Shown here: positions 3,858 to 56,526 of the stretch, piece after piece
How positions within the stretch are numbered: the stretch's first letter is position 1
How the letters are laid out: each line of letters begins with the position of its first letter
DNA from: Candidatus Pacearchaeota archaeon
Lineage (GTDB): Archaea; Nanobdellota; Nanobdellia; UBA10117; JAFCGI01
Length of the DNA stretch: 64,000 bases
Direction of reading: 5' to 3'
Assembly (NCBI GenBank): GCA_017608235.1
Contig: JAFCGI010000005.1
Span: forward strand, 46,930-110,929
Notes under the pieces: generated by a model
What the model was told of the DNA's origin: nothing
Database searches by the model: none
The model's input: the letters and a program-made list of their open reading frames with translations, nothing else
Position numbers and translations under genes: made by a program

Positions 3858-5132
3858 ATGGCTAAGATTGGAGACAAAGTTTCTGTTGAGCATAAAGATA
3901 AAAGATATGATGGTATCCTTATGCCTTCTGAAGAAGATTCTAAAGATATCTTGATTTTGAAGCTAGTTAATGGATATAATATTGGTTTTGATAAGAAAGA
4001 AACTAAAGTTAAAGTTCTAGAATCAGCAAGAGAGTATAAGTTTCCTAGTGCTAAGCTGACGAAAGACAAGAAGCTTCCTAAAATTGTGATCATTACTACT
4101 GGTGGCACAATTACGTCTAAAGTAGATTATAAAACAGGAGCAGTGCATCCTCTAATAAGACCTGAAGAACTTCTTGCTCAAGTACCAGAGTTAAGTAAGA
4201 TTGCTAATATTGAAATTAAGAATCCTTTTGCAGTACTTAGTGAAGATATGACTTCTAAGAACTGGAGAGATCTTGCTAAAGAAGTTATGAAAGCTTTAAA
4301 CTCTGATGCTATTGGAGTTATAGTAACACATGGTACTGATACTTTAGCATATACTGCCTCTGCATTAAGTTTTATGATTAAAGATCTAAATAAGCCAGTT
4401 GCATTAGTTGGAGGTCAAAGATCTTCAGATCGGGGAAGTTTTGATGGTGCGCTTAATTTGATATGTGCTGCTTACTATTGCTGTTCTGATATTGCAGAAG
4501 TTTCTGTTGTAATGCATGGAACTAGTTCTGATGATTATTGCTTAGCAATCCCAGGAACTAAAGCTAGAAAAATGCATACATCAAGACGGGATGCTTTTCG
4601 TCCTGTAAATAGTTTACCTTTTGCAAAAATCTATAACAAAGGTATGATTGAATTAATAAGAAAAGATTTCAATAAGCGTTCTACTGGAAAGGTAAAACTT
4701 GATAATAAATTTGAGAAAAAAGTAGCATTAGTTAAGTTTGCTCCTGGACAGGGTCCTGGTGTGGTAGATTATTATGCTAAACAAGGATATAAAGGAATTA
4801 TTTTAGAAGGAACTGGTTTAGGACATGTGGCTATTACTGGTTTGAATTCTTGGATAAAAAGCATACAGCAGGCTGTGAAGAAAGGAATCTTTGTTGGGAT
4901 TACTTCTCAGTGTTTATATGGAAGAACAGATTTGTTTGTCTATAGCAATGGACGGAAACTGCTGGATGCTGGCTGTATCCAGTTGGGAGATATGCTTCCT
5001 GAGACTGCCTATATAAAATTAGGATGGGCTCTTGCTCATGTTAAGAATTCTGAAGATGTTAAAAAATTGATGCTTGAGAATATTTCCAAAGAAATCTCTG
5101 AAAAGGAAGACCCAAAATCCTATTTATATTAA
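3858..5132 (+). CDS. gatD: Glu-tRNA(Gln) amidotransferase subunit D (asparaginase-like)
   Basis: Asparaginase-type motifs IVIITTGGTITS and VIVTHGTDTL. Sits in the conserved pairing with gatE nearby. Confidence 0.85.
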   Translation: MAKIGDKVSVEHKDKRYDGILMPSEEDSKDILILKLVNGYNIGFDKKETKVKVLESAREYKFPSAKLTKDKKLPKIVIITTGGTITSKVDYKTGAVHPLIRPEELLAQVPELSKIANIEIKNPFAVLSEDMTSKNWRDLAKEVMKALNSDAIGVIVTHGTDTLAYTASALSFMIKDLNKPVALVGGQRSSDRGSFDGALNLICAAYYCCSDIAEVSVVMHGTSSDDYCLAIPGTKARKMHTSRRDAFRPVNSLPFAKIYNKGMIELIRKDFNKRSTGKVKLDNKFEKKVALVKFAPGQGPGVVDYYAKQGYKGIILEGTGLGHVAITGLNSWIKSIQQAVKKGIFVGITSQCLYGRTDLFVYSNGRKLLDAGCIQLGDMLPETAYIKLGWALAHVKNSEDVKKLMLENISKEISEKEDPKSYLY

Positions 5133-5251
5133 TAATTCTTAGACTTTCTCTAGATTTTTAAACTAACTATTTAATTGTTTGTTCCAATATATAGTTTCTA
5201 ATATATAGATTCGAAAGGTTTATATATAGTTAATTACTGTTAAGTAGTACT

Positions 5252-6319
5252 ATGATAAGTAAAACTAAGGTAAAATCAGATAGACCTTTTGGTGTACACA
5301 CAATCCTTGAAACTGTAAGATATTGTCCATTAGCAGGACTAGCAATTATACAGGGATTTAAGGGAAAAGAAAGTCCTTTAAATAAATATAAGCAGGCTAT
5401 AGGCAATGAAGTACACAGATTATTTGAAATTAATCCTTTGCTTGCTCCTGAAATTTTAGAAAGGAATATGTCTAGTATGAGTTTAGAAGATAGATTTAAT
5501 CTTAATACTGAACAAGAAATACTTACTCCTGAAGGAGACTTTATTATTCCTGAAAAAACAAAACTTCATACTAATCTATGCAGTATTAGATCTTCATTAA
5601 CAACAAGTAGACAAAGCAGAACACTTAGAATAAATCCTAGATTAAGTTTAGTTAACATTCCATTTAGAACTGCCTATAATAATTATAGTGCTTTACCTCA
5701 TTTAGGAAAGCTTGGTAGAGATGGTTGTGCTGAGTTGCTTTCTTATTGGGGAGCTAACGGAATTGAAGATAGAAATAAAAAAATCGTTAGCAGCGGATTT
5801 GTAGGAGCTCCAGATCATGTTTTCAGTTTTAGACATCCAAAAATTCCTGAAATGGGAAAACAAGTTGTAGCTGAGTTTAAAACTTATGGTCCTGGATTTA
5901 ATCATGATATTAATAGATTACAGGTAGAGTTATATATGCATATGCTTGATGAAAAAAACAAATCAGAAGGTAATCTAAATATTAGTGTAGAAGGATGTTT
6001 ACTTTATCAAGGATTAACTATGCCTAAAACAGCTAGTGGTAGTAAAAGTCAATCTCAAGAACATAGTAAATTGTTTCCTATTTATCCAAATAAAAAAAAT
6101 ATAGAGCTTGCGATAAAAGCAAGAAGTGATCTTATTAAAGTTATTAATAATGATTATGATACAAACTTCTTTGAAAGAGATTGCAAAAAAGATGAAAGCT
6201 ATTGTAAAAAAATAAGATGTCCTCATGCTGAAGCTTGTTATGGAGATAAAAGCTTAGAATATATAAAAAGATGTAAATCTAGCAGATCTAAGTTATATAA
6301 TACCAAAATTATAGCTTAA
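5252..6319 (+). CDS. Cas4-like / RecB-family PD-(D/E)XK nuclease with a predicted Fe-S cysteine cluster (DUF83-like), lying between gatD and gatE
   Basis: N-terminal Cys (RYCPLAG). Nuclease motifs PDHVF ... AEFKT ... QVELYMHM (D, ExK, QxxxY). C-terminal cysteine cluster CKKIRCPHAEAC. Confidence 0.5.
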   Translation: MISKTKVKSDRPFGVHTILETVRYCPLAGLAIIQGFKGKESPLNKYKQAIGNEVHRLFEINPLLAPEILERNMSSMSLEDRFNLNTEQEILTPEGDFIIPEKTKLHTNLCSIRSSLTTSRQSRTLRINPRLSLVNIPFRTAYNNYSALPHLGKLGRDGCAELLSYWGANGIEDRNKKIVSSGFVGAPDHVFSFRHPKIPEMGKQVVAEFKTYGPGFNHDINRLQVELYMHMLDEKNKSEGNLNISVEGCLLYQGLTMPKTASGSKSQSQEHSKLFPIYPNKKNIELAIKARSDLIKVINNDYDTNFFERDCKKDESYCKKIRCPHAEACYGDKSLEYIKRCKSSRSKLYNTKIIA

Positions 6320-6373
6320 TCTAAATAACTTGAAAAAGAAATAATTATATTTAACTAATTTTCTTTTATTTTT

Positions 6374-7816
6374 ATGACAGATTTTGATTATACTAAATTA
6401 GGATTTAAATCTGGGTTAGAGATTCATCAGAGACTAAAATCTCACAAATTGTTTTGTGATTGTAGTTCTGATATGGCTAAGACTGATTTTAGTATTGAAG
6501 CTATGAGAAAGCTTAGAGCAACTCCTGGAGAATTGGGAAAGATAGATATTGCTGCTGCGTTTGAGGCAGCAAAGGAACAAGAGTTTATTTATCATGGTTA
6601 TAAAGATGAATCTTGTCTAGTGGAGTGGGATGAAGAACCACCGCATCTAATTAATCAAGAAGCTCTGAATATTGCAATTAAGATTGCTATGCTTTTGAAT
6701 TGTAATATTGTTAAAAATATACAGGTTATGAGAAAAACTGTTCTTGATGGTTCTAATACAAGTGGTTTTCAGAGAACCATGCTGATAGGAACAGATGGGT
6801 TTATTGATACTAGTTTTGGCAAGGTTGGAATTAAATATATGATTCTTGAAGAGGAAGCAGCAAAGAATCTTGGCGAGGAAAAAGGAAGGAAAGTTTGGGG
6901 ATTGAACAGATTAGGAATTCCATTAGTTGAGATTGTAACAGATCCTGATATGAAAAATCCTGAACAAGTAAAAGAAGTCGCTGAAAAAATTGGCTTGATG
7001 TTAAGATCTACTGGCTTGGTTCTTAGGGGCTTAGGTACAATTAGACAAGATATTAATGTTTCAATAAAAAAAGGAGATAGAACTGAGATAAAAGGTGTAC
7101 AAGATATAAGGTTAGTTAAAAAAGTCATAGATTCTGAAATTCAAAGACAGCTTGATCTTATCTTTAAAAAGAAAAAAATAGAGAGAACAGTAAGAAGTGC
7201 ATTAGCTGATGGTTCTACAAAATTTATGAGGCCCTTACCTGGTGGAGCAAGACTTTATCCTGAAACAGATCATCCTTTGATTATATTAGATAATAAGAAA
7301 CTTGCAAAAATAAAGAAAGAACTTCCTGAACCTTTAGAAAAGAAAAAAGCTAGACTTGAAAAATTAAATATAAGTAAAGATCTTGTTAAGCAGATTTTAC
7401 ATTCTACTTATTTAGAGTTTTTTGAATTCTTAGTTAAGAATTATAAGAATGTAAGGCCTAGTATAATTGCTAAGCTTTTGTTCTCAATTCCTAAAGAAGT
7501 TGAAAAGAAACTAGGAATCATTAAGGGGGAATTTTCAGAAGAACATTTTTTAGAAATTCTAGAACTACTAGACAAAGGAAGGGTAGCTAAAGAATCAGTA
7601 TTAGATATTATGGTTGAGGTTGCTAAAGGTAATCAAATTAGTAAGATTTGGAAGGATTACAAAATGCTTTCTGATTCTGAAATCAAGAAAAAAGTAGAGG
7701 AGATAAAAAAGAAAAACAAGGATGCTCCTGAAAATAAGATTATTGGAATAATAATGGGTGAACTTCGTGGGAAAGCTGATGCTCAGAAGATCTTAAAAAT
7801 AGTGAAAAGCAAATAA
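6374..7816 (+). CDS. gatE: Glu-tRNA(Gln) amidotransferase subunit E
   Basis: N-terminus MTDFDYTKLGFKSGLEIHQRL is the typical GatE/GatB start. 480 aa with a GatB/YqeY-like C-terminal domain. Confidence 0.85.
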   Translation: MTDFDYTKLGFKSGLEIHQRLKSHKLFCDCSSDMAKTDFSIEAMRKLRATPGELGKIDIAAAFEAAKEQEFIYHGYKDESCLVEWDEEPPHLINQEALNIAIKIAMLLNCNIVKNIQVMRKTVLDGSNTSGFQRTMLIGTDGFIDTSFGKVGIKYMILEEEAAKNLGEEKGRKVWGLNRLGIPLVEIVTDPDMKNPEQVKEVAEKIGLMLRSTGLVLRGLGTIRQDINVSIKKGDRTEIKGVQDIRLVKKVIDSEIQRQLDLIFKKKKIERTVRSALADGSTKFMRPLPGGARLYPETDHPLIILDNKKLAKIKKELPEPLEKKKARLEKLNISKDLVKQILHSTYLEFFEFLVKNYKNVRPSIIAKLLFSIPKEVEKKLGIIKGEFSEEHFLEILELLDKGRVAKESVLDIMVEVAKGNQISKIWKDYKMLSDSEIKKKVEEIKKKNKDAPENKIIGIIMGELRGKADAQKILKIVKSK

Positions 7817-9799: not shown

Positions 9800-12700
9800 A
9801 TGGGCAATCGATTAAAAAGAGCTGGATATGTTTTAGGAAGCGGTACTTTAGGTCTTGCTGCATTAATTGTGGCTGCTAAAGCTACTGCTGAAGGTCAGTT
9901 TTTAATTACTGGACAAAGTGTAGATTATCATCTTGGTAATATGTATCATAATTTTCAAAGCGCGCTTAATAGTGTTTATAATTGGTTAATAAGTGACAAT
10001 CATAGTCTTGATAGAATTGGTAGAGATTATGATGGAAAGACTCCTTGGAATAGAACTGAAAATTCTGAGCAGATTACTGAAACAAAACCTGATGTTCGAT
10101 CAAATCCTAATGAATATATTGTTGAAAGGGAAATAAAAACTGATAGATCATTAGTGATGCATCATAATGGTGAAGGTAGTTCTTTAACATTTGATCCTGA
10201 TCAAGGGTCTCAGGAAACCTATATTCCTAGAGAACAATTTATTTCTAAAATCCAAGTAGGCATTGGAGACTATGCAACAGGGCAAGAAGGTACTGGTCAT
10301 TACAAAGGAGAACTTCTTGCTGGAGATGCTAATGGTGATGGTAAATATGATCTTGAAATCGCAAATGGTGAAACCAAGACTGTTTGGGAAATTAGAAACC
10401 ATTCTGAAGTTAATGATGATTTAGAAGGAAAAATATTCGAAAATAAAGAAGATGCTGTTGGTGCAGTTGAGTCTACTGCTGTTACAGGTCCTGCAGAAAA
10501 AGAATATACTTTCTGGGAAAGATTTAATGGAGCAGGCGGAAATATAGGATTTGGTGGAGCATTCATAAAGAATCTTGGTTTAAGATTAGCTGGATCTTGG
10601 GGTATGTTTATTGGATTAGTAGGATTACAATATAAACTTCACAAGAGCAAAAAAGAATGGAAGAAAAAAACTTACATAAATGATACTCTGGAATATATAG
10701 CTAAAGATCTAAAAAATCGGGCAGAAATGATTGGAATAAATATTCCATCTTCAAACCAAAGAATATCAGATAAAGAATTAGAACTTTGTATTGCTATTGT
10801 AGATGATGGTGATCAAATAGAAACTTCTACAAACCAATCATTAGAGCAAGAAGTTCAAAAAATTCCTAAAATTCAAGAAATTCAACAAATTTTATCCAAA
10901 GATAAATTAAACAGAGCAAAAATGAATGAATTAACAAAGCTTTCTGAAGATGCTAGTCTGCCTGTAGAAGGATTAAAAAGAAATGACTTGTTAGAACAAC
11001 TTCGTATATATTATCGTCGTATATATTATCGTTATGATGATCCAGAAGAATCGCAAATAGAAACTCAAAATGTTGCTCAAAATGTTGAGCAAGAAAAATT
11101 AAATAAAGAAATTAGAGAATTAGTTGTTAAAGAATTAAGTGATTTAAGAATTGGAGCACTTAAAGATATTCTTAAAACATTAAGAGAAGAATATGCTAGT
11201 AATGTTTCCATACCTTATGTATATTCAGAAGAAGAAGCTAATGCAGATGTCCATGCAAGTATTATAGATGCAATAAGGAAAGGAATCTATTCTGAAGATT
11301 TCAAAACAGATATTAAAAAACGAAAAGCGTTAATTAATAGCTTTGAAGCTAAAACATTTACAATTGAGGACGTAGAAAAAAATCTTAATAACAAAAATCT
11401 TAGTAAATATGAACTTAAGAAATTAGAAAAATTAATAAATAAAAAAATTAATGCTAAAGAACTCAATATTGATTACTGGCATTCTATAAGAACTAATAAT
11501 ATTAGAAAATTAATTAGAGAGCATAATTTAAGTGATGAAGAAATAGTGGAATATTTGAATATTTCAAAAGATTATGTTGGTTCTGATATACTTAATGATC
11601 TTAGAGATGAAGTAGAAAGAGAAAAATTTGAAGAAGATATGATTGCTCCACTTATTAAAATATATCCTGATATCGCTGCAGAATTAGGATATGAGCTTAT
11701 AGATAAAGAACTTTCAGATGGTTATGGATCTATATCTAATGATCCTCATTTAATTGGAGGCTATTATTGGAAAAAATTCATAGAATGGGATATGGATACT
11801 CTTAATGAGAAATTAAACATAGCAAAAAAAATCTTTAAACAAATTAACAAACACACAGATATTCAATCAATTAAAACTATACTTAGACAAAATGGTGGAT
11901 TTGAATTATTGGTTGATATAGTTAATGAGATGAGAGAAGAACTATCTAATTCAAAAAAAAATGAATTAATAAAGCGTTCCGAAGAATTGGGATTGCCTAC
12001 AAAGAATAAAAAACATAAAGAATTGATAGAACAACTTTATAACTATTATAATTATGACAAATTAGAATCAACAATACCGGCAGAACAACCTACTCAGGCT
12101 ATTACTCAATCCCAACCAGAAGTATCTATAGAACAACCTACTCGACCATATAAAGTCGTAAAACGTGAAATTAAAGAAAAAATAAGAAACTTAAGATCAG
12201 AAAAGAAAAATATAGAAAGACTATTACGTGATAAAGAAAAGCAAATCAAGGAATATCATGCTTCAAATAATAAATCATATGCAGATTCATTTTTAAGAGA
12301 TGCTACGAATGTACGCCAATCTTATACAGTCCAAATACAAGAAAAAAATATAAAAATTGAATCTCTAAAATATCAATTGCAAAAAGCAAAAAAGAATAAG
12401 AAAAAAAATCAAACTGATCAGCAAGTATCATCACAAAATGAATCAGTACAAACTCCTGATCAACCAGAACAAGAAGCTTCTAGTAGGGTAGCTATCTCTT
12501 ATACTAACTTATCAGCAGAAGAGTCTATAACTAGTTCTGATAGCTCAAGCTTAGTAGATGAGGTTGATCAAAAAATTCCTGACTTAGATAATAGTGATGG
12601 TGATCAAAAAGAAACTCAAGAAACTAGCTACCAAGAGAATATTGAAGATAATGGTTATGAAACCCAGCCACAAATAGAAACTCAAGAAACTAGCTACCAA

Positions 12701-12883
12701 GAGAATATTGAAGATAATGGTTATGAAACCCAGCCACAAATAGAAACTCAAGAAACTAGCTACCAAGAAGATACTGAAGATACTCAAGCTAGTACTCAAT
12801 CCCAACCACAAATAGAAACTCAAGAAACTAGCTACCAAGAAGATACTGAAGATAATGAATGGAGCTTCCTGCTAACACTTTAA
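9800..12883 (+). CDS. Large (1027 aa) secreted or membrane-anchored coiled-coil protein with SAP/HeH-like motifs and C-terminal acidic tandem repeats
   Basis: N-terminal hydrophobic segment GSGTLGLAALIVAAKATAEG. Motifs LPVEGLKRNDLLEQLRIYY and LGLPTKNKKHKELIEQLYNYY. C-terminal ETQETSYQENIEDNGYETQPQI repeated about four times. Confidence 0.5.
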   Translation: MGNRLKRAGYVLGSGTLGLAALIVAAKATAEGQFLITGQSVDYHLGNMYHNFQSALNSVYNWLISDNHSLDRIGRDYDGKTPWNRTENSEQITETKPDVRSNPNEYIVEREIKTDRSLVMHHNGEGSSLTFDPDQGSQETYIPREQFISKIQVGIGDYATGQEGTGHYKGELLAGDANGDGKYDLEIANGETKTVWEIRNHSEVNDDLEGKIFENKEDAVGAVESTAVTGPAEKEYTFWERFNGAGGNIGFGGAFIKNLGLRLAGSWGMFIGLVGLQYKLHKSKKEWKKKTYINDTLEYIAKDLKNRAEMIGINIPSSNQRISDKELELCIAIVDDGDQIETSTNQSLEQEVQKIPKIQEIQQILSKDKLNRAKMNELTKLSEDASLPVEGLKRNDLLEQLRIYYRRIYYRYDDPEESQIETQNVAQNVEQEKLNKEIRELVVKELSDLRIGALKDILKTLREEYASNVSIPYVYSEEEANADVHASIIDAIRKGIYSEDFKTDIKKRKALINSFEAKTFTIEDVEKNLNNKNLSKYELKKLEKLINKKINAKELNIDYWHSIRTNNIRKLIREHNLSDEEIVEYLNISKDYVGSDILNDLRDEVEREKFEEDMIAPLIKIYPDIAAELGYELIDKELSDGYGSISNDPHLIGGYYWKKFIEWDMDTLNEKLNIAKKIFKQINKHTDIQSIKTILRQNGGFELLVDIVNEMREELSNSKKNELIKRSEELGLPTKNKKHKELIEQLYNYYNYDKLESTIPAEQPTQAITQSQPEVSIEQPTRPYKVVKREIKEKIRNLRSEKKNIERLLRDKEKQIKEYHASNNKSYADSFLRDATNVRQSYTVQIQEKNIKIESLKYQLQKAKKNKKKNQTDQQVSSQNESVQTPDQPEQEASSRVAISYTNLSAEESITSSDSSSLVDEVDQKIPDLDNSDGDQKETQETSYQENIEDNGYETQPQIETQETSYQENIEDNGYETQPQIETQETSYQEDTEDTQASTQSQPQIETQETSYQEDTEDNEWSFLLTL
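12611..12870 (+). repeat. Intragenic tandem repeat of 66 nt, about 4 copies (last two diverged to 72 nt), encoding ETQETSYQE(N/D)... units
   Basis: Direct reading: gaaactcaagaaactagctaccaagagaatattgaagataatggttatgaaacccagccacaaata repeated. Confidence 0.85.
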
Positions 12884-19037: not shown

Positions 19038-19118
19038 TCTAAAAGAATTAATGAGTACTTCAATATTAAAATGTTTATTTTCTCTGAACAGTAAGATATT
19101 TATTTGAATATAAACAAA

Positions 19119-19205
19119 TCTTTCAAACTTAAATTCTTTCAAACTTAAATTCTTTCAAACTTAAACTCTTTCAAACTTAAACTCTTTCAAACTTAAACTC
19201 TTTTA
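19119..19205. repeat. Intergenic tandem repeat, 17-nt unit x5 (tctttcaaacttaaa[t/c]t)
   Basis: Direct reading of the sequence between the permease start and the tRNA. Confidence 0.85.
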
Positions 19206-19320
19206 AGACACTTTTAGAATCTAAAAAGAAAGAAAATACTGATTATTATAAACTAGATAACATTTTTTAAAGCCTGTTCAAAGAAAACCTTTAAAAACAT
19301 AAACAATGAAGATAAATCAT

Positions 19321-43478: not shown

Positions 43479-43588
43479 ATAGTTAATTACTAAAGAATTA
43501 ATAGTTAATTACAGAAGGATTAATAGTTAATTACTAAAGAATTAATAGTTAATTACAGAAGGATTAATAGTTAATTACTAAAGAATTA
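43479..43588. repeat. Intergenic tandem repeat, 22-nt unit x5 (attaatagttaattac + taaaga or agaagg, alternating)
   Basis: Direct reading. Lies between the rps10 3' end and the start of the membrane-protein gene. Confidence 0.85.
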
Positions 43589-43894
43589 CTCGATAACTTG
43601 TATTTCTATATTAACATCTTTTGGAATTGGTACTCTCATAACTAAATGCAAGGCTCGTTCATCAGCAGCTAAATCAATCATACGCTTATGAATTCTCATT
43701 TCGTATCTTTCCCAGGTTTCTGTACCTTCACCATCTGGGGCTTTTCTTACTGGAATTCTAAGGATTTTTGTAGGAAGATTTATTGGACCTGAATAGTTTA
43801 CTCCTACATTCTTAGCAATATCAGTAATCTGATTAGCTATGCTATTCAATTTGTTTATGTCTGTGCTGTAAAGCTTAATTCTTGCTTTTGGCAT
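43586..43894 (-). CDS. rps10: Ribosomal protein S10
   Basis: MPKARIKLYSTDINKLNSIANQITDIAKNVGVNYSGPINLPTKILRIPVRKAPDGEGTETWERYEMRIHKR is typical S10. Inverted relative to tuf. Confidence 0.8.
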   Translation of the reverse strand: MPKARIKLYSTDINKLNSIANQITDIAKNVGVNYSGPINLPTKILRIPVRKAPDGEGTETWERYEMRIHKRMIDLAADERALHLVMRVPIPKDVNIEIQVIE

Positions 43895-43999
43895 TCTAAA
43901 TAGCTTGGTTTATGGGTTTAAAAAGGTTTTCTTTGCAAGTTTTTTTCTAAGGAACTTTCCTTTTATTACTAATCTTTTGGATAAAAAAATAAAAAAGAA

Positions 44000-44074
44000 T
44001 GGGCCCGGGCGGATTCGAACCGCCGATCCCCGCCTTGTAAGGGCGGTGTCATAACCAGACTAGACCACAAGCCC
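44000..44074 (-). tRNA. tRNA-Val (anticodon TAC)
   Basis: Reverse complement reads GGGCTTG-TG-GTCTAGTCTGGTTATGAC-A-CCGCC-CTTACAA-GGCGG-GGATC-GGCGG-TTCGAAT-CCGCC-CGGGCCC-A. Confidence 0.75.
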
Positions 44075-44077
44075 ATA

Positions 44078-44568: not shown

Positions 44569-44865
44569 TTAGTATTTCTCTTTATTTTTCTCATAATACT
44601 CTTTTCTGTATTCTTTGGGTGTTTTAGAAAATCCATTAAATAACAGTTTTAAACTCTTTTTAATCTCTTTAATCCTTGCTAAATGTTCTTTATATTCTTT
44701 ATCAAATCTTTCCGCATCCTCAATTCTTCTTCTTTTGTTAAATTCCTGAAATTCCTTGACTTCTATCTCTTTTTGAGGAAACAATCTAGAACATAAAGCA
44801 CATTTGTATTTAGGTCTAGAAGAAAGCAATACAAGTTTGTATGAGTAGTTTGGACATCGTGGCAT
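44569..44865 (-). CDS. Zinc-ribbon protein, last gene of the island operon
   Basis: CPNYSYK...CALCSR. The start overlaps the stop of the upstream nuclease gene. Confidence 0.45.
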   Translation of the reverse strand: MPRCPNYSYKLVLLSSRPKYKCALCSRLFPQKEIEVKEFQEFNKRRRIEDAERFDKEYKEHLARIKEIKKSLKLLFNGFSKTPKEYRKEYYEKNKEKY

Positions 44866-45893
44866 TATTTCTTCTCCTTTTTCTTTAAAGCTTCTTTATT
44901 TTCTCTCGCATATTTTATATTCTGAAGTTGTCTTTTCCCATTTTCAATGAGTTCATTAAAAGTAACTATTTTAATATGAGGTCTTAATTGAAAATTCCAA
45001 TTTTTTATAAGTCTCTGTTCCCCATCACTTATATTGTAACCCATAACAATTATTCCGGAAGGGGCTTGTATTTTATAAGTGCCCTCTTCAGATAAACCAC
45101 TATACAAATCTGTTCTACGCAAGTAGAGAATCAATTGATTAATCCCTTGTGCTAGTTCATCAGAAATATATAATCTTGAGTCATCTTTTTTCTTGAAAAA
45201 TGGATTAAGATTTGGGCTTTTGAATTCAAAAACTTTATCTTCCCCAATTTCAGTTTTTATGTGAAGATCTACTGCTAATTGTGGATCAACTGCTTTTTCA
45301 GAAGCCTTAACCTCACAATCTATGCCTAATATCCATTTACTTTCCTTAAGTTTCGTTTTTACTAAATGCTCTTCTCTTTTAGTACCCTTACTAATTCTTT
45401 TTACTTCATTTTCAAATTCAGTTAGTTTAGATTCATAATCTTCTATTTTATCAATTACTTCCTTAGCAAGTGTTATCTCAATTTGTTGTTTACTTAAACG
45501 TTCCTCAGCATCCTTGAGTTTTATTTTTGCTTCTACAAGTTCATTGTTTAACAATTCAACTTTTTCTTTATATATTGAAACTTCTTCTGAAACATCTTCT
45601 ATTTGTTTACCCCAAATTTTATATGCGAATCCTTTAACTGTTTTAGAAAACCATTTGAACCATTCTGAGAGATTAATTCTATTAGGAATCCAAAAACCAG
45701 ATTTATGTGTTTTAAAATAAGGTTTTGTTGATGCAGATTGAACTCTTATACCTTCATATCCTTGTGTATTTTTTTCAGAAGAGATTTTTGATTTATAAGT
45801 TCCTTCTTCAAAACTGTCTGATTTAATCTCTTTAATATGCTCTGATTTATAAAAATCATTTGTTCTCTTCTTTTTAGTTTTCTTTTTTGTCAC
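44865..45893 (-). CDS. PD-(D/E)XK-superfamily nuclease with an N-terminal basic/coiled-coil region (Shedu/DUF4263-like or RecB-like fold)
   Basis: In the C-terminal domain: VDLHIK...KVFEFKSP (D...ExK) and QGINQLILYLRR (QxxxY). The N-terminus is a K-rich segment followed by heptad-like coiled coil. Confidence 0.5.
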   Translation of the reverse strand: MTKKKTKKKRTNDFYKSEHIKEIKSDSFEEGTYKSKISSEKNTQGYEGIRVQSASTKPYFKTHKSGFWIPNRINLSEWFKWFSKTVKGFAYKIWGKQIEDVSEEVSIYKEKVELLNNELVEAKIKLKDAEERLSKQQIEITLAKEVIDKIEDYESKLTEFENEVKRISKGTKREEHLVKTKLKESKWILGIDCEVKASEKAVDPQLAVDLHIKTEIGEDKVFEFKSPNLNPFFKKKDDSRLYISDELAQGINQLILYLRRTDLYSGLSEEGTYKIQAPSGIIVMGYNISDGEQRLIKNWNFQLRPHIKIVTFNELIENGKRQLQNIKYARENKEALKKKEKK

Positions 45894-45894
45894 T

Positions 45895-46572
45895 TTATTT
45901 TTCTCCTCTTATTTTACAAAACCCACACTCTTTACTTGCCTTTGGCTCTTTTCCTTGTAAAATTTTAATGGCTTGTTTGAAAACTTTTTCCCCTCTTTTA
46001 GGATCTGTTTTAATTTTAATCAATTTGGTATCAAATATTACTTCTCCTGTTTCTGTAACATGATTAGGATAATAAAACAATAGATAAGTATAGTCTTCTG
46101 TTTGATAACCATTTTCTCTTAATAAGAAATTATAAAGATCCATTTGATTGATATAATGCTCATGAGTATCTTCTTTTAGAGGAAATCCTCTTGTTTTGTA
46201 ATCTAAAACAATTAGTTTCTTTCCTTTCTTTAGAATATTATCTACTGCTCCATGTAATAAAATATTTGATTTTTTGTCTAGTAATTCTATACCCTTAAAA
46301 TTGCTTCTCCAGATTTTTAGTTTTTCTTTATCATTGAATAATTTACATCCATCATTTGCACATTCTTGTTCTTTTAGTTCTGGTGGAAGTTCTCCTTTTT
46401 CCATAAACCTATCAAAATGCTCTTTTAGAACTTTATCCATCCCTGAAGGTAAACTTGGGAATGGTGTGTCTGGTCTTCTTTCTTTTTTAACTAATTGAAG
46501 CCAGAAACATCTAGGACATTCTAGCATTAAATTCAATGAACTTGGTGATATTTTGTATGTTGATTTATTCAT
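45895..46572 (-). CDS. Cas4-like / RecB-family exonuclease with Fe-S cluster cysteines (DUF83 type)
   Basis: N-terminal ISPSSLNLMLECPRCFWL (the Cas4 signature). LHGAVDNI...LIVLDYKT (D, D/ExK), QMDLYNFLL (QxxxY). C-terminal cysteines CGFCK. Confidence 0.65.
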   Translation of the reverse strand: MNKSTYKISPSSLNLMLECPRCFWLQLVKKERRPDTPFPSLPSGMDKVLKEHFDRFMEKGELPPELKEQECANDGCKLFNDKEKLKIWRSNFKGIELLDKKSNILLHGAVDNILKKGKKLIVLDYKTRGFPLKEDTHEHYINQMDLYNFLLRENGYQTEDYTYLLFYYPNHVTETGEVIFDTKLIKIKTDPKRGEKVFKQAIKILQGKEPKASKECGFCKIRGEK

Positions 46573-48893
46573 TTGAATATTATCTCCTTTAATTTTTTAA
46601 TTTCATTTTCATTTAATAGATTTATTCCTTTTGGATTTTGAATTATATCTCCTTTTAATTTAATAAATGGCTTATTTTTTTTATCAAATGTCAATTCTTG
46701 TTTAAAATAGATAACTCCTGAGATAATATCTGTATTTGGATTTGTTTTATGTATTGAATCGTCTTTTCTCGAAGGATATTGATCTATTGTTTTGCCAGTT
46801 TTTTTATCCATAACTAAGGTTAAAGATAAACTTCCAAAGAAGGTATTGATTATTTCATGTTCATCAATAGTTGAACCACTTTTATCTATAACTATAAAAA
46901 TAATATCACTCCTTTTTTTATTTAACATTTCTTTTAGAGTTACATCTGATTTAATCTGTTTTTTAAATTTATTTTTTATTTTTTTAAGAGCTTCATTAGG
47001 CATGGCTACAGCACTATTACTTAATCTTAAATTCTTATTAATTTCAGGTCTTGTAATCTCAAAGTAAATATCTTTATTGAATAAATTTACCTTAAGATCA
47101 AGATTATTGTTTTTTTTATTTGGTGGAAGGGGCTCTATAACCTCAATATGATTATTATCAAACTTATTTATAAAAATAAGTTCACTAAAATAATTCCAAA
47201 ATTTATTTTCATTAAACAAGTTTTGTTTTATATCCTTGACTATATGTTCTTTTTTCTTGAATTTTTCATTTGCTTTTGTCTCAATTATTTTAATGTTCTT
47301 ATTCAATTCATAAAGATAAGCTTTTGGCCAAAATCTACTTCTAACAAAATCTATCTTAAATGCCTTATTTAATTCAGAATCTTTTTCTGAAATTTTAATA
47401 TCTTCAAGAGTTGGTTGTTCATTTTCTCCAAGCCAAATAAGAGGAGTGTATCGCTTTTTGTTTTCTGCTTCTATAATTACCTCTTTTGCAAATTTATACA
47501 AGTTAGTGTATTTTTTGAGATTTTTTTTAATTATATCAAAGTTGTATTTTTCTTTCCTATTTCTCAATTGAGTTAAAAGATTTTCAGCAAAGTTAATTAA
47601 ATAGTCATAATCGTCTTTAGAAAAAGGTTTTTTGTTTTTCCTTTCATTGTATTTATTTTTATTAAACTCGATGAAATTTTTTTCCTTAGATATTTTAATT
47701 AGATTGTCTATAAGTTTAATAATAACATCTTTATTTTTAATATCCTTAAAAATATTTCCAATTAAGACATTATTTAACTCAAAAAATAAATATTTTTCAT
47801 CTTTATTCTTTAGATTAAATTTTAGTATCTGATCCAAAGCATAGCTTATATGGAATTTTGAGAGTGTTTTAAATAAATGAGGTAATGTAACAATATATAA
47901 TTTTGATTTTTTATTTTGGATTCTCTTGTAATTTTCAAGGATATATCTAATAAAAAGTCTATTCTTTTTTACTAATTCCTCAAGTGCCCAGTCAAAATGT
48001 CTTAATTTAAATTCCATATCTTTATTTAACCAATAAATAAACAAATCAGATATTTGTTTATATGGCTGAGGAAACTTCCTTAATACTTCAACGATTTTGT
48101 CTATTATGATATAATCCATATCTTTAGAATATTTAATAAGTTCAAAGATTTGTTTTTGGTTTAATAAGTCTTTATATGTTAACCTATCAAACAATAAATA
48201 AGTAATATTTTTGTCCTTTAGTTTTATTAAATCAAAGAGTTTATTATAAAAATAGTCTTTATTTTTATTAAAAAATATTAAACAAACATTAATGAATTCT
48301 TGCAGTATTTTTTTATCTTGGTTTTTAGATATTTTATCAAAATAAGAATAAGCTTCTTTACTTAGTCTTTGGGATTCATATTTATACAAAATAGCTTTTA
48401 ATATAGAATTAGTTTGTGGATATTCAAGCTTTTTATTTAAAAATTCCTCCAGGATTGAATCATTTTTTACTGAATATCCTCCAAGGATTAAACCAGCCAC
48501 TACCTTAAAATCACTATCTTTAGATTTAGTTATTATCTTCTTATAAAATTGTAGAGCAAATGGTTTATTTTTTCCAATATCTTTTAGTATATTTAGGAAA
48601 GGCCCTTGAGCCATATCTCTTTTTATTTTATTGTTTATTTTTTCTAATAATTCAAGGTATTTATCTGTGTTATCTGCTAACTCATATGTAACAGTAGTAA
48701 TCAATTCAAAATATCCCCAAAAGTCAGAACTAAAGAGAAAATCATCAATTAATTTATATTTATCCTTTTCAGATAGCTTAGATTTATGACTATTGTAAAC
48801 TTTGATTTGTTCTTCAAATTTGTAATATTTACCTTTTAAGTCTTCTTCAAGGCTCATATTCTTGGCACCATCTTCCATTTTTCTTGATTGCAT
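46569..48893 (-). CDS. Large (774 aa) predominantly alpha-helical protein with a distinct C-terminal domain, function unknown; no P-loop found
   Basis: Extremely K/N/I/F/Y-rich and more AT-rich than the neighbouring genes. Start and stop overlap both flanking genes in the operon. Confidence 0.45.
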   Translation of the reverse strand: MQSRKMEDGAKNMSLEEDLKGKYYKFEEQIKVYNSHKSKLSEKDKYKLIDDFLFSSDFWGYFELITTVTYELADNTDKYLELLEKINNKIKRDMAQGPFLNILKDIGKNKPFALQFYKKIITKSKDSDFKVVAGLILGGYSVKNDSILEEFLNKKLEYPQTNSILKAILYKYESQRLSKEAYSYFDKISKNQDKKILQEFINVCLIFFNKNKDYFYNKLFDLIKLKDKNITYLLFDRLTYKDLLNQKQIFELIKYSKDMDYIIIDKIVEVLRKFPQPYKQISDLFIYWLNKDMEFKLRHFDWALEELVKKNRLFIRYILENYKRIQNKKSKLYIVTLPHLFKTLSKFHISYALDQILKFNLKNKDEKYLFFELNNVLIGNIFKDIKNKDVIIKLIDNLIKISKEKNFIEFNKNKYNERKNKKPFSKDDYDYLINFAENLLTQLRNRKEKYNFDIIKKNLKKYTNLYKFAKEVIIEAENKKRYTPLIWLGENEQPTLEDIKISEKDSELNKAFKIDFVRSRFWPKAYLYELNKNIKIIETKANEKFKKKEHIVKDIKQNLFNENKFWNYFSELIFINKFDNNHIEVIEPLPPNKKNNNLDLKVNLFNKDIYFEITRPEINKNLRLSNSAVAMPNEALKKIKNKFKKQIKSDVTLKEMLNKKRSDIIFIVIDKSGSTIDEHEIINTFFGSLSLTLVMDKKTGKTIDQYPSRKDDSIHKTNPNTDIISGVIYFKQELTFDKKNKPFIKLKGDIIQNPKGINLLNENEIKKLKEIIFK

Positions 48894-49567
48894 CGGTATA
48901 AATACCCATTTGGGATTATTTCAAAATTTTTTGTACTATTTTTTTTGCAAATTACAACGTCACATCCATAAATGTATGGACTTCCTGTAAACTGAAAATC
49001 AATCAAAGAGATGTTATTTAAAGTATTAACTGAGTGTCTAATTATTTGTTTAAAATTTCTTTTTAGTTCATAGGATTTTAATTCATTTAATTGAGATAAA
49101 ATATAATTTCCTCTTCGCAAATCATTATTTGAATCAAGACAAGTCTCTTTACCAGATCCTATGAATCCTTTTTCAATAGATTTGATCTCATAGTCTTTTA
49201 TGTTATTGGAAACCATTTTCGAGAAATCAATTTTGTAACACTTAAATGAAGCGATATTAAGTAGAATACAAGAAACATCAATTTTTGAGAGTCGGGGATA
49301 TGTTTTTTTAATGATAGCATATATTTTTTTGAATTGTAGCCTGTTGTTGATATTTGCGTAAAACATATCTTTTATTTTTATTATATTAGAACTATTCCCT
49401 GCAAAACCCAATATCCAATTTTTTCTTATTTCTACTTTTTTTGCAAAATTATGTGGAAAGACTTCATATCCTTCAGTCGCCCGGATAGTATCATGTATAT
49501 CAGTTTCCAACCTATCTGCAACAAGTACCCACGCATTCTTCAATGGAAAGGCAAAAATAGAAGTCAT
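48854..49567 (-). CDS. HslV/proteasome-beta-like N-terminal-nucleophile hydrolase (Thr directly after the initiator Met, no propeptide)
   Basis: [17 protein letters not shown] aligns with HslV [31 protein letters not shown] aligns with HslV [16 protein letters not shown] matches the HslV/proteasome GSGG block. SD GAGGGG lies 11 nt upstream. Confidence 0.55.
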   Translation of the reverse strand: [237 protein letters not shown]

Positions 49568-49634
49568 TTTTCATTAACCCCTCAACAAAATTGTAATTTC
49601 TTCTTTGACCAACCCATATAATTCATGAACCATT

Positions 49635-54508: not shown

Positions 54509-54755
54509 TTTTCATCTCTTTAACAGCTTCTTCAGGTCCTTTTAGTTTGTAAAGTCTTATTCTGGAATCTTGAGGATCTAGTCTAGCTTCTAACCAGCCA
54601 TATTTTTTAAGGTCAGAAATGCACAGGCTTACGACCCTCTCATCCTTCTCTTTAAGGGCTTCTATGGCCTGTTTATGGGTAAATTCTTCATTTCTAAATT
54701 TATTCCAAAGTGTTGAATATCTTTTCATAATCCATCGTGGAAGCGGTTCTATCAT
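54501..54755 (-). CDS. Small winged-helix-like protein upstream of and overlapping mod; possible regulator (controller-like)
   Basis: MIEPLPRWIMKRYSTLWNKF...LDPQDSRIRLYKLKG. Start placed at the internal Met; the longer track ORF N-terminus looks spurious. Confidence 0.35.
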   Translation of the reverse strand: MIEPLPRWIMKRYSTLWNKFRNEEFTHKQAIEALKEKDERVVSLCISDLKKYGWLEARLDPQDSRIRLYKLKGPEEAVKEMKNG

Positions 54756-54949
54756 ATTAAGTCCCTCATGTGCATCACATAAGTAATATGTAGTCCTATT
54801 TAAATATATTGTTTTGCATTTTAAGCCAGAAATAAAGTGTATTCTACAGAATAACAATGTTTAAATAGTAGTTATGCTTATTACATAAGTATTATGTATA
54901 TAAAATAAGTATCAAGAGAGACTCTCCGCAAAGATCATCTCTCCTGGTA

Positions 54950-56526
54950 ATGGAGTCCGCGATGAACTCCACAATAGAAAGAATAGAAAAGGAACTTAAT
55001 AAAACTTTTGAGTCTGTTAGTGAGAAATGGATTAAAACCTCTTCTGTTCTTAAAAAATTGAACTTACAATTAATAGAACAAAGACAATCTAAATTCAATC
55101 CAGAAAGCTTAATTAAATTATATCTTTACAGAAGAATAAAAGGCATCCATTATTATGAAAAGTTAATAGAACATTTAGAAAATAATGAAACTGATTCTTA
55201 TGATCTTGGATTTTCAAATGGAAATAATAACAAGTTAGAATTTCCAACAAAAAGAGCATTTAATAAATTCTTCAAAAATAAAATTGATGATAATCTCAAA
55301 TTACAATTAGATAATCTTACTAAAAATATTCTAAGAATAGCAACTCAAAAAGGAATAGTCTTAGATTTAGAATTAGTCAATAAAGCAATAAAAGATAAGA
55401 AAGATAAAAAGAGAGAGAGAAAAGAAAAGCATTTCATGAAGCCACTAAATTGGTAAAGAAATTAGTCTATCCTCAAATTGATATTAAAATTAAAGAGAAT
55501 GGAAAATTTACAACTAAGGATTTATTGGATGTTTTAGTTCATATTGCTTATTCTCATGATTTTACTACAAACGGCTCTTCTACATTCCAGGAATTATATC
55601 CTGACTTAAAAGCTCCTTCTGGAGATTTAATGTTATATCATTTTTCTAAATTGCAATCAGTAGATAAAATAAAAGATATGTTTATTTCAATATTTGATGT
55701 TATTTTTAACTTTGCTAAACAGAATTACAAGCTGTTAAATAGAAGAAAAATAGACATTGCGTTTGATGTCCACAAAATCCCCTATTATGGCAATAAGAAT
55801 GATTTTTATGTAACAGAAGGAAAACATGAAAGAGGAACAACTCACTTCTATCAGTTCTTAACATGCTCAATAGTCGTTGCTGGGCAGAGATTTAGTATTG
55901 ATGCTATTCCTATTCATAAATTTGATAGTATTGAAAATTTAGTAGATCAAAGTTTAGAAAGGGTTAAACAAAAAATTCATATCAATAAAGCATATCTTGA
56001 TAGAGGTTTTGATAAACCAAAAGTAATCAACGTTATCAAAGCTCATAAAGTAAAGTTTATCATGCCAAAAGTTAGAAGTGAAACTGTAAAGGCATGGATG
56101 AGAAAATCTGAGGAATGCAAGGCGAGAGTTATTGAAAACTTTGAAATTGGTAAAGGAGAGAATAAGGCTATTGTGAACTTAATCCTTGTAGATGATGAAG
56201 AAGGGATAAAGAGAGCTTTCATTACTAATTTTCACATTCCTGAACAACTATCACATTATCTTTATAATTGGTATTCAAAAAGATGGGGAATTGAAACAGG
56301 GTACGGGCAGTTTGACCATGATTTTAAAGCAAAAACCACTACTAAGAATTATCACATTAGATTATTCTATTTCTTATTTTCAGTATGTTTGTATAATCTT
56401 TGGGTCTTGGTAAATATTTGTGTTTCTTTATCTCTTCATGGTAGATTGTCAGAAAAGCCAATAATTACATCTAAGTTATTTGCAGTTGTTCTTTACAAAG
56501 TTGCTTATGAAGATCCTCCAACGTGA
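54950..56526 (+). mobile_element. IS4-family (DDE_Tnp_1) transposase gene, split into two overlapping ORFs (54950..55456 and 55450..56526) by a frameshift in an A-rich tract. Terminal inverted repeats not resolved
   Basis: DDE residues in IAFDVH, AYLDRGF and the signature YSKRWGIETGY. Both frames are open across the agaaagataaaaagagagagagaaaagaaaag tract. Confidence 0.6.

What the first reader, a model, noticed from the sequence alone, without database searches (positions are those of the whole stretch)
5252..6319. Cas4-like Fe-S nuclease gene wedged between gatD and gatE
gatD and gatE are normally adjacent. Here a 355-aa ORF with the D / ExK / QxxxY nuclease motifs plus one N-terminal and three C-terminal cysteines (the Cas4/DUF83 arrangement) lies between them, with an extra roughly 150-aa N-terminal region. 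A second Cas4-like gene occurs in the 44-57 kb island, which suggests a family of stand-alone Cas4-like nucleases in this genome with no CRISPR array in view.
Basis: partly seen in the sequence, partly recalled or inferred. Interest (0 to 1): 0.5.

Follow-up and report, generated by a model that had tools for sequence, protein, structure and literature searches.

The report
Divergent stand-alone Cas4-like nuclease gene
A real but very divergent gene between gatD and gatE of a small-genome (DPANN-type) archaeon most likely encodes a stand-alone Cas4-like iron-sulfur DNA nuclease, a kind of gene already known to be common in these archaea, so the finding is largely ordinary.

Summary
The 355-aa ORF at 5252-6319(+) is real and sits exactly between gatD and gatE. 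It has a strong, host-like coding signature. Its motifs are ordered as in Cas4: YCP(C25), G51xxxH55xxxE59, D188, E208xK210, Q224xxxY228, then C311/C318/C323/C329. That arrangement occurs in 0-60 of 200,000 shuffles and in none of 807 other natural ORFs.

Family-level support is weak. The only profile hit is PHROG 1706 ('CRISPR/Cas system associated', E 0.0017). Pfam, NCBIfam, PADLOC and PDB give nothing. Two searches of billions of proteins find only the protein itself. Both AlphaFold models are unusable (pLDDT 33 and 43), so the cysteine geometry could not be tested.

The 'extra 150-aa N-terminal region' is really an internal insertion of about 100 aa.

The second gene (45895-46572) is a genuine PDDEXK_1/Cas4-like nuclease inside a restriction-modification/defence operon. 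It is not a detectable paralog of the first.

Among relatives, gatD and gatE are adjacent in only 14 of 49 informative loci. The junction often holds unrelated accessory genes.

Stand-alone Cas4 genes, sometimes two per genome and without CRISPR, are already described for DPANN archaea (PMC5704561).

Verdict: probably a new, highly divergent member of a known kind. Low to moderate interest.

The parts
5219..5228 (+). TATA-box-like element TTTATATATA about 25-30 nt upstream of the ATG. It suggests the gene has its own promoter and a leaderless or short-leader transcript (inference).
   Evidence: Read directly from the sequence. No archaeal promoter tool was available.
5252..6319 (+). Focal ORF, 355 aa: probable divergent stand-alone Cas4-like PD-(D/E)XK nuclease.
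   Evidence: ORF. Coding signature. phrog_1706 E 0.0017. Motif statistics.
5318..5428 (+). N-terminal Cas4-type module: Y24-C25-P26 (C25 codon at 5324-5326), then 24 residues, then G51xxxH55xxxE59. C25 is the putative first Fe-S ligand and H55 the putative metal-binding His.
   Evidence: Positions. Same YCP-x24-GxxxHxxxE spacing as the 4R5Q Cas4 fragment printed. By score this fragment is not significantly similar.
5444..5746 (+). Internal insertion of about 100 aa (residues ~65-165), rich in L/S/R/T/N, with no counterpart in the PDDEXK_1 relatives. It is predicted partly coil (~88-137) and partly helix, at low confidence.
   Evidence: MAFFT alignment A3. AlphaFold secondary structure. Coding signature same as the rest of the gene: CAI 0.805, GC3 0.109.
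5813..5815 (+). D188 (GAPDHV), the motif II aspartate.
   Evidence: Aligned with D111 of the PDDEXK_1 protein.
5873..5881 (+). E208-F-K210 (VAEFKT), the motif III ExK.
   Evidence: Aligned with DYK of the PDDEXK_1 protein and EIK of 4R5Q.
5921..5935 (+). Q224-V-E-L-Y228, the QhxxY motif helix.
   Evidence: Aligned with QMDLY and QLQIY. It is the only segment with pLDDT above 70 in the alignment-guided model.
6182..6238 (+). C-terminal cysteine group C311-x6-C318-x4-C323-x5-C329 (a further Cys is C341 at 6272-6274). These are the putative remaining Fe-S ligands, with non-canonical spacing.
   Evidence: The region lies inside the phrog_1706 match (residues 201-341). Spatial clustering was not testable.
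3858..5132 (+). gatD (context, upstream neighbour).
   Evidence: NCBIfam GatD 5.6e-162; Pfam GatD_N, Asparaginase and Asparaginase_C.
6374..7816 (+). gatE, short 480-aa form (context, downstream neighbour). It has its own AT-rich TATA-like element at about 6342-6353.
   Evidence: NCBIfam GatE 1.4e-160 in two stretches. Sequence.
45895..46572 (-). Second, unrelated-subfamily Cas4-like / PDDEXK_1 nuclease (225 aa), inside a tightly packed minus-strand operon with type III R-M genes and an SduA_C-like gene.
   Evidence: Pfam PDDEXK_1 3.4e-12. PADLOC Cas4 1.5e-11. 3487 homologs. Invariant C19, C22, C216, C219.

Best explanation
ORF 5252-6319 is an expressed chromosomal gene of a low-GC DPANN-type archaeon. 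It encodes a highly diverged stand-alone ('solo') Cas4-family-like nuclease.

Inferred mechanism, by analogy with characterised Cas4 proteins:
- A PD-(D/E)XK active site binds Mg2+/Mn2+ and cuts DNA. It would be built from H55, D188, E208 and K210, with Q224/Y228 on the following helix.
- An Fe-S cluster staples the N-terminal helix to the C-terminus. It would be ligated by C25 and three of C311/C318/C323/C329.
- An internal insertion of about 100 aa is lineage-specific and of unknown role.

The gene appears to have its own promoter. It has no evident functional link to GatD/GatE. It simply occupies the gatD-gatE junction, which in related genomes is a variable slot holding many different accessory genes. 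Its likely role is DNA end processing in repair, recombination or defence, independent of CRISPR.

Shown: the gene is real, the motif order is non-random, and there is a weak profile match to a Cas4-like family. Inferred: the fold, Fe-S binding, nuclease activity and biological role.
For: - Real gene: in-frame CAI 0.79 against 0.50-0.69 in the other frames; GC3 0.13; the same signature within the insertion.
- Ordered Cas4 motif set, at positions. It matched 60 of 200,000 shuffles (loose) and 0 of 200,000 (strict), and 0 of 807 other natural ORFs.
- The only profile hit is to a Cas-annotated nuclease family: phrog_1706, E 0.0017 for the full protein and 0.0011 for residues 156-355, covering ExK through the Cys group.
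- The window's bona fide PDDEXK_1 protein hits the same PHROG in the same register (E 7.2e-5). One reversed and seven shuffled decoys gave nothing at or below 0.02, and nothing nuclease-related.
- BLASTP against that PDDEXK_1 protein aligns D, ExK and QxxxY in register (E 0.02). MAFFT aligns C25/P26, D188, K210, Q224 and Y228 with its invariant residues.
- Local alignment to the core fragment of solved Cas4 4R5Q scores 50 (z 6.9, 0 of 2000 shuffles). Among 808 natural ORFs the focal ORF ranks 4th, behind three true PDDEXK_1 proteins.
- The order of predicted secondary structure around the motifs fits a PD-(D/E)XK core: strand-D, strand-ExK, helix-QxxxY, strand, strand, helix, Cys group (low confidence).
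- Literature: most DPANN archaea encode solo-Cas4 without CRISPR-Cas, several encode two distinct ones, and some lineages evolve fast (PMC5704561). A solo-Cas4 has been shown to bind [4Fe-4S] and to cut DNA (PMC12501428).
Against: - No hit in Pfam (PF01930/PF12705 included), NCBIfam or PADLOC. This holds for the C-terminal domain alone and for constructs with the insertions deleted.
- No PDB sequence hit to any nuclease.
- No homolog at all among 5.8 billion word-indexed and 1.84 billion exhaustively scanned proteins, even at E up to 10 in the word-indexed search.
- An HMM of the second gene's family scores the ORF 0.6 bits, which is background. hhalign probability is 0.39%.
- The N-terminal module is not significantly similar to 4R5Q by score (z 0.45, rank 153 of 808).
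- In the core-fragment ranking, the margin over the best unrelated ORF is small (50 against 48).
- The C-terminal Cys spacing is not C-x2-C-x5-C.
- The AlphaFold models have mean pLDDT 33 and 43 and gave meaningless Foldseek hits. Neither the fold nor the Cys clustering is demonstrated.
Confidence: 0.65

Rival explanations
1. The gene is cargo of viral or mobile-element origin (an MGE-type Cas4-like exonuclease) that landed in a variable slot between gatD and gatE. It would not be a vertically inherited cellular solo-Cas4.
For: - Its only profile match is to a phage protein family (phrog_1706).
- The two closest of the three closest GatD relatives (L002, L003; 53-55% identity) have gatD and gatE 8-9 bp apart, with no insert.
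- In other relatives the same junction carries varied accessory or defence-like genes: SoFic-type Fic, weak AbiEii-like hits, and a small nuclease-like ORF.
- Cas4 genes are often recruited by mobile elements (PMC5704561).
Against: - Base composition and codon usage are indistinguishable from, or better adapted than, the housekeeping neighbours.
- There are no flanking direct or inverted repeats beyond chance, and no integrase, tRNA or other mobile-element gene at the site.
- No relative was found in 2.9 million viral contigs or 50,697 phage genomes.
Confidence: 0.15
2. The protein is a lineage-specific protein of another fold. Its Cas4-like motifs and the weak PHROG match are coincidental, so it is not a nuclease.
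For: - All curated nuclease profiles fail.
- The family HMM and hhalign results are at background.
- There is no confident structure.
- The motifs were noticed post hoc among many ORFs.
- A comparably weak similarity to IscU (E 0.11) covers the same region.
Against: - The complete ordered constellation is very rare in shuffles and absent from 807 natural ORFs.
- The single profile hit is to exactly the predicted kind of family and in the right register.
- The IscU-like alignment lacks all three IscU cysteine ligands and has a worse E-value.
- Similarity to the 4R5Q catalytic core exceeds all shuffles.
Confidence: 0.12
3. The protein is a Cas4-derived protein that keeps the fold but has lost nuclease or Fe-S function, having been exapted for a structural or binding role as in TTV1. 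This would explain its extreme divergence, large insertion and altered Cys spacing.
For: - Divergence is extreme and the protein is a singleton.
- There is a ~100-aa insertion.
- The Cys spacing is non-canonical.
- An inactivated Cas4 derivative is known in TTV1 (PMC5704561).
Against: - Every catalytic position (H55, D188, E208, K210, Q224, Y228) and at least four suitably placed cysteines are retained. That is not expected after loss of function.
- Singleton status is also explained by sparse sampling: even GatD has no relative above 55% identity.
Confidence: 0.06
4. The ORF is spurious, a non-coding open frame in an AT-rich intergenic region.
For: It has no homologs anywhere.
Against: - It is a 355-codon open frame in 30% GC DNA, where stop codons are frequent.
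- It shows strong frame-specific codon bias and the GC1>GC2>GC3 pattern over its whole length.
- It has a TATA-like element at the expected distance.
- A gene was called here by NCBI and JGI.
Confidence: 0.02

Closest known systems
Solo-Cas4 (stand-alone Cas4-family PD-(D/E)XK / Fe-S nucleases of archaea, especially DPANN; Hudaiberdiev et al. 2017, PMC5704561; M. mazei Solo-Cas4, PMC12501428)
   Same: - It is stand-alone, with no cas genes or CRISPR array nearby.
- The host is a small-genome archaeon.
- It has an N-terminal YCP cysteine, GxxxH, D, ExK and QxxxY, and a C-terminal cysteine group.
- A second, distinct Cas4-like gene lies in the same genome, as reported for several DPANN.
   Different: - It is not recognised by any curated Cas4 or PDDEXK_1 profile.
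- It is 355 aa rather than about 170-230 aa, because of an internal insertion of about 100 aa.
- The C-terminal spacing is C-x6-C-x4-C-x5-C instead of C-x2-C-x5-C.
- No detectable homolog exists in public data.
CRISPR-associated Cas4 with solved structures (Pyrobaculum calidifontis Pcal_0546, PDB 4R5Q)
   Same: - The YCP-x24-GxxxHxxxE spacing at the N-terminus is identical.
- The ExK-QxxxY core aligns with z 6.9.
   Different: - There is no cas1/cas2/CRISPR context.
- The N-terminal similarity is not significant by score.
- No sequence hit to 4R5Q or any Cas4 chain in PDB searches.
PHROG 1706 (phage protein family annotated 'CRISPR/Cas system associated', Cas4-like exonucleases)
   Same: It is the only family profile that matches (E 0.0017, residues 201-341 to profile positions 133-254 of 293), in the same register as a genuine PDDEXK_1 protein.
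   Different: - The match is weak (18.9 bits) and covers only the C-terminal 40% of the protein.
- The gene lies in a cellular chromosome with host-like codon usage, and no phage genes are nearby.
The window's own PDDEXK_1 protein family (45895-46572; 3487 relatives in DPANN and other archaea)
   Same: It belongs to the same superfamily-level motif set (CP, D, [DE]xK, QxxxY), aligned in register by BLASTP and MAFFT.
   Different: - Its cysteine arrangement is different (CPxC...CxxC).
- Its family HMM does not recognise the focal ORF (0.6 bits).
- That family is extremely conserved and widespread, whereas the focal ORF is a singleton.
- It sits in a defence operon rather than between housekeeping genes.

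Membership tests
Cas4 family (PD-(D/E)XK nuclease with Fe-S cluster; Pfam PF01930 / PF12705 clan, COG1468) | RecB-type catalytic motifs in order: D (motif II), ExK (motif III), QhxxY | tested here: met
   D188, E208-x-K210 and Q224-xxx-Y228. They align in register with a PDDEXK_1 protein and with 4R5Q. The core pattern alone occurs in 3.3% of shuffles.
Cas4 family (PD-(D/E)XK nuclease with Fe-S cluster; Pfam PF01930 / PF12705 clan, COG1468) | Four conserved cysteines: one N-terminal (YxxCP context) and three C-terminal | tested here: met
   C25 lies in RYCP. C311, C318, C323 and C329 lie in the last 45 residues. The full ordered pattern matched 60 of 200,000 shuffles and 0 of 807 natural ORFs.
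Cas4 family (PD-(D/E)XK nuclease with Fe-S cluster; Pfam PF01930 / PF12705 clan, COG1468) | Canonical C-terminal spacing C-x2-C-x5-C | tested here: not met
   The observed spacing is C311-x6-C318-x4-C323-x5-C329. Only the last pair has the canonical x5 spacing.
Cas4 family (PD-(D/E)XK nuclease with Fe-S cluster; Pfam PF01930 / PF12705 clan, COG1468) | Significant match to curated Cas4 / PDDEXK_1 profile HMMs | tested here: not met
   Pfam, NCBIfam and PADLOC gave 0 families, at E thresholds of 1 (Pfam and NCBIfam on the full protein) or 10 (PADLOC, and Pfam on the C-terminal domain and two insertion-deleted constructs).
Cas4 family (PD-(D/E)XK nuclease with Fe-S cluster; Pfam PF01930 / PF12705 clan, COG1468) | Match to any Cas4-like family profile | tested here: met
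   phrog_1706 'CRISPR/Cas system associated', E 0.0017 and 0.0011. Decoys were negative and the PDDEXK_1 positive control hit the same profile. The match is weak (18.9 bits).
Cas4 family (PD-(D/E)XK nuclease with Fe-S cluster; Pfam PF01930 / PF12705 clan, COG1468) | PD-(D/E)XK fold with the four cysteines spatially clustered | tested here: inconclusive
   AlphaFold2 on the single sequence gave pLDDT 33.3. With the PDDEXK_1 family as alignment it gave 42.7. Foldseek against PDB gave only meaningless hits (E at least 1.2).
Cas4 family (PD-(D/E)XK nuclease with Fe-S cluster; Pfam PF01930 / PF12705 clan, COG1468) | Metal-dependent DNA nuclease activity and Fe-S cluster binding | not testable with these tools
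   This requires protein purification, UV-vis or EPR spectroscopy, and nuclease assays.
CRISPR-associated Cas4 (CAS-Cas4) | Location in a cas operon (next to cas1/cas2) or near a CRISPR array | tested here: not met
   The neighbours are gatD, gatE, DUF362 and ftsZ. No CRISPR-like repeats occur in the 64 kb. The island genes are R-M, Shedu-like and IS genes, not cas.
PDDEXK_1 subfamily of the second gene (45895-46572) | Recognised by a profile of that family; CPxC...CxxC cysteines | tested here: not met
   hmmsearch scored the ORF 0.6 bits, within background (about 75th in the listing of 808 ORFs). hhalign probability is 0.39%. The focal ORF has A28, not Cys, at the second position, and its C-terminal cysteines do not align.
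IscU / NifU_N Fe-S scaffold (weak PDB similarity) | Three conserved cluster-ligand cysteines; significant profile match | tested here: not met
   The best PDB E-value is 0.11, over residues 170-250. The aligned positions of the IscU cysteines are D/H and P in the focal ORF (GAPD-HV, YGPGF). There is no Pfam NifU_N hit.

The most novel reading that the evidence does not exclude
The ORF may found a previously unsampled lineage of insertion-bearing Fe-S PD-(D/E)XK nucleases that no curated profile detects. In addition, the gatD-gatE junction may be a recurrent landing site for accessory and defence-type genes (Fic, AbiEii-like nucleotidyltransferases, small nucleases, this Cas4-like gene) across DPANN archaea. 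That would make it a conserved 'hot spot' anchored by two translation genes.
Probability: 0.2. Interest if true: 0.4.

Novelty: new member of a known kind. Interest (0 to 1): 0.2.

Why it matters
If the reading is right, the gene adds a very divergent, insertion-bearing example to the stand-alone Cas4 nucleases. These are common in small-genome archaea that lack CRISPR, and their cellular role is still unclear.

It also shows how such genes escape curated profiles. Pfam, NCBIfam and PADLOC all miss it, so counts of solo-Cas4 in DPANN genomes may be underestimates.

The practical value is modest. The phenomenon (solo-Cas4, sometimes two per genome, without CRISPR) is already published. The position between gatD and gatE appears incidental.

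Tried and rejected
- **Homolog searches.** The word-indexed search of 5.8 billion proteins at E 0.001 and at E 10, and exhaustive phmmer over 1.84 billion representatives, found only the protein itself. The look-up of encoding contigs had no record of it. tblastn against phages and plasmids gave only chance hits. A viral-contig scan found nothing.
- **Curated profiles.** Pfam, NCBIfam and PADLOC gave nothing, also for the C-terminal domain alone and for two insertion-deleted constructs.
- **PDB sequence search.** I searched with the full protein, residues 1-75, and the C-terminal 180 residues (about 176-355). The only hits were weak IscU similarity (E 0.11-0.9). I rejected these because all IscU Cys ligands are missing.
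- **Structure.** AlphaFold2 on the single sequence gave pLDDT 33. AlphaFold2 with the second gene's family as a surrogate alignment gave pLDDT 43. This second run is partly circular by design. The Foldseek results are meaningless.
- **Paralogy with the second Cas4-like gene.** hhalign (0.39%) and a family HMM (0.6 bits) do not support it.
- **A broader Cas4 profile.** I tried to build one from phage, plasmid and viral collections, but found only 1-2 extra sequences and abandoned the attempt.
- **Mobile-element signatures.** Repeat and tRNA scans around the gene found nothing beyond chance.
- **Orthologs in the same slot.** None of 62 intervening ORFs from 25 related loci resembles the focal ORF (best E 1.0 by BLASTP, 0.5 by tblastn).
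- **A conserved partner for the second gene.** The downstream gene differs between genomes.
Full report
**1. What is in the sequence**

The ORF is exactly as reported: 5252..6319 on the + strand, ATG start, 355 aa.
- Its left neighbour (3858..5132) is GatD: NCBIfam 5.6e-162; Pfam GatD_N, Asparaginase and Asparaginase_C.
- Its right neighbour (6374..7816) is GatE: NCBIfam 1.4e-160; Pfam GatB_N and GatB_Yqey.
- The window has about 30% GC.
- Best relatives of its proteins are from Pacearchaeota, Woesearchaeota and Nanoarchaeota records. The host is therefore a DPANN-type archaeon.

The ORF is a real, long-resident gene.
- In-frame codon adaptation to the housekeeping genes of the window is 0.79, against 0.50-0.69 in the five other frames.
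- GC3 is 0.13, the lowest of the 17 window genes compared. The same signature holds in each of its four segments.
- A TTTATATATA element lies 24-33 nt upstream of the ATG. A similar AT-rich element precedes gatE. I infer that each gene has its own promoter, but no tool here tests archaeal promoters.

**2. The motifs and their significance**

The protein carries, in order:
- Y24-C25-P26
- G51xxxH55xxxE59
- D188 (GAPDHV)
- E208-x-K210 (VAEFKT)
- Q224xxxY228
- C311-x6-C318-x4-C323-x5-C329 (and C341)

Chance is an unlikely explanation.
- A loose regular expression for this ordered set matched 60 of 200,000 composition-preserving shuffles. A stricter one with hydrophobic contexts matched none.
- In 808 natural stop-to-stop ORFs of at least 120 aa, from the window plus 86 related loci (709 kb), only the focal ORF matched.

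- The first 60 residues already hold the Cas4-type N-terminal module.
- Its spacing (YCP, 24 residues, GxxxHxxxE) is the same as in the solved Cas4 4R5Q fragment printed.
- The surplus is an internal insertion of about 100 residues (~65-165), as the alignment with PDDEXK_1 proteins shows.

**3. Family-level evidence**

The results are mixed, and I report both sides.

Negative:
- Pfam, NCBIfam and PADLOC give no hit, even for the C-terminal domain alone or with the insertions deleted.
- PDB sequence searches give only a chance-level IscU similarity that lacks all IscU cysteines.
- Searches of 5.8 billion and 1.84 billion proteins return only the protein itself, even at E up to 10 in the former.
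- An HMM of the second gene's family scores the ORF at background (0.6 bits). hhalign gives 0.39% probability.
- Both AlphaFold models are unusable (pLDDT 33.3 and 42.7), and the Foldseek hits are meaningless.

Positive:
- The one profile that matches is a Cas-annotated phage nuclease family, phrog_1706. E is 0.0017 for residues 201-341, and 0.0011 with the C-terminal domain alone.
- The window's genuine PDDEXK_1 protein hits the same profile in the same register. Eight decoys gave nothing comparable.
- BLASTP against that PDDEXK_1 protein aligns D, ExK and QxxxY in register (E 0.02).
- The catalytic-core fragment of Cas4 4R5Q aligns to residues 201-232 with z 6.9. The focal ORF ranks fourth of 808 natural ORFs, behind three true family members. 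The margin over the next ORF is small, 50 against 48.

I put the probability of a Cas4-like PD-(D/E)XK nuclease at about two in three. The four-Cys geometry remains untested.

**4. Why there are no homologs**

The genome's lineage is barely sampled.
- GatD and GatE are themselves singletons at 90% clustering.
- The closest GatD in 185,579 species genomes is 47% identical. The closest in the JGI metagenomes is 55% identical.
- A faster-evolving nuclease at that distance would fall below detection in databases of billions of sequences.

Singleton status is therefore expected and is not evidence of a new kind of protein.

**5. The gatD-gatE position**

I fetched 80 metagenomic gatD loci plus one genome locus and located gatE in each. 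There are 49 informative non-redundant loci:

| Arrangement | Loci |
|---|---|
| gatD and gatE adjacent (gap at most 400 bp) | 14 |
| Separated by 0.57-5.1 kb | 24 |
| No gatE within at least 2 kb downstream | 11 |

- The window's spacing is about 1.24 kb, so it falls in the common 'separated' class.
- The intervening genes are heterogeneous:
  - SoFic-type Fic proteins
  - weak AbiEii-like nucleotidyltransferases
  - uridine kinase
  - phosphoribosyltransferase-like proteins
  - a small UPF0102/AHJR-like ORF
  - many unknowns
- None of them resembles the focal ORF.
- Of the three closest GatD relatives, L002 and L003 have the two genes 8-9 bp apart, and L004 has no gatE within 2.4 kb downstream. 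The focal gene was therefore probably gained at this junction, or lost elsewhere.

I see no functional link to the amidotransferase.

**6. The second gene and the 'family' claim**

ORF 45895..46572(-) is a bona fide PDDEXK_1/Cas4-like protein: Pfam 3.4e-12, PADLOC Cas4 1.5e-11.
- It lies in a tightly packed minus-strand operon. The other genes are type III mod and res, two unknown ORFs and an SduA_C (Shedu)-like gene. The operon sits next to tRNA-Val and an IS element.
- Its family has 3487 detected relatives. The best 120 are all at least 67% identical.
- Its invariant cysteines are CPxC...CxxC, not the canonical Cas4 arrangement.
- It is not a detectable paralog of the focal ORF.

So the genome has two different stand-alone Cas4-like genes, not one expanded family. 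No CRISPR-like array is present in the window.

**7. Comparison with what is known**

- Hudaiberdiev et al. 2017 (PMC5704561) report that most DPANN archaea encode solo-Cas4 but not CRISPR-associated Cas4. [quoted passage not shown]
- A solo-Cas4 from Methanosarcina mazei binds a [4Fe-4S] cluster through its four cysteines and cleaves DNA in a metal-dependent way (PMC12501428).

The finding therefore fits a known kind. What is particular here:
- extreme divergence
- the ~100-aa internal insertion
- the altered spacing of the C-terminal cysteines

**8. Verdict**

- The best explanation is a divergent stand-alone Cas4-like Fe-S nuclease (confidence 0.65) that sits incidentally in a variable genomic slot.
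- Novelty: a new member of a known kind.
- Interest: 0.2.

Noticed in passing
window 6374-7816: GatE is a short 480-aa form. It matches the 622-630-position NCBIfam GatE models in two stretches, so it lacks the middle insertion domain. Most related loci have the same short form. A few (L002, L012, L049) show split matches, suggesting the longer form.
   Followed up: partly
L001-L081 (gatD loci), region between gatD and gatE: The gatD-gatE junction is a variable slot in DPANN relatives: 14 loci adjacent, 24 separated by 0.57-5.1 kb, and 11 without gatE within at least 2 kb. Cargo includes SoFic-type Fic (PADLOC 6.5e-17), weak AbiEii-like nucleotidyltransferases, uridine kinase, PRTase-like proteins and a small UPF0102/AHJR-like ORF.
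   Followed up: partly
window 44865-54857 (minus strand): A tightly packed operon lies next to tRNA-Val (43999-44075). Its genes are orf118, type III R-M mod (52340-54508) and res (49635-52340), two unknown ORFs (237 and 774 aa), the PDDEXK_1 gene, and an SduA_C (Shedu)-like gene (44865-45893). The genes overlap or lie 1-4 bp apart, apart from a ~67-bp gap between res and orf237. It looks like a composite defence island.
   Followed up: partly
window 45895-46572 and proteins P0005-P0137: This PDDEXK_1 family is unusually conserved. The best 120 of 3487 hits are all at least 67% identical, across Woesearchaeota, Nanoarchaeota and a Methanoperedenaceae genome. Its invariant cysteines are CPxC...CxxC rather than the canonical Cas4 pattern. 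Its neighbours differ between genomes: type I HsdR plus RadC in L084, and IS genes in L086.
   Followed up: partly
window 54950-57689: An IS-like pair (DUF772 domain ORF 54950-55456 and DDE_Tnp_1 transposase 55450-56526) is followed by a short MCM-like AAA protein (56715-57689, MCM_lid 6e-10). The group borders the island on the side toward tRNA-Lys (58765-58841).
   Followed up: no
window 43479-43610; 19100-19206; 12605-12874: Three tandem repeats were seen. There are five 22-nt units in the intergenic region by the S10-like gene, and five or six 16-nt units at 19.1 kb. Four 66-nt units encode an acidic Q/E/T-rich repeat at the C-terminus of the 1027-aa ORF 9800-12883.
   Followed up: no
window 5759-6001 (focal residues 170-250): There is weak similarity to the Fe-S scaffold IscU (PDB E 0.11), including GAP and FKT(Y/F)G strings. 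All three IscU cysteine ligands are replaced, so I judged it coincidental.
   Followed up: yes
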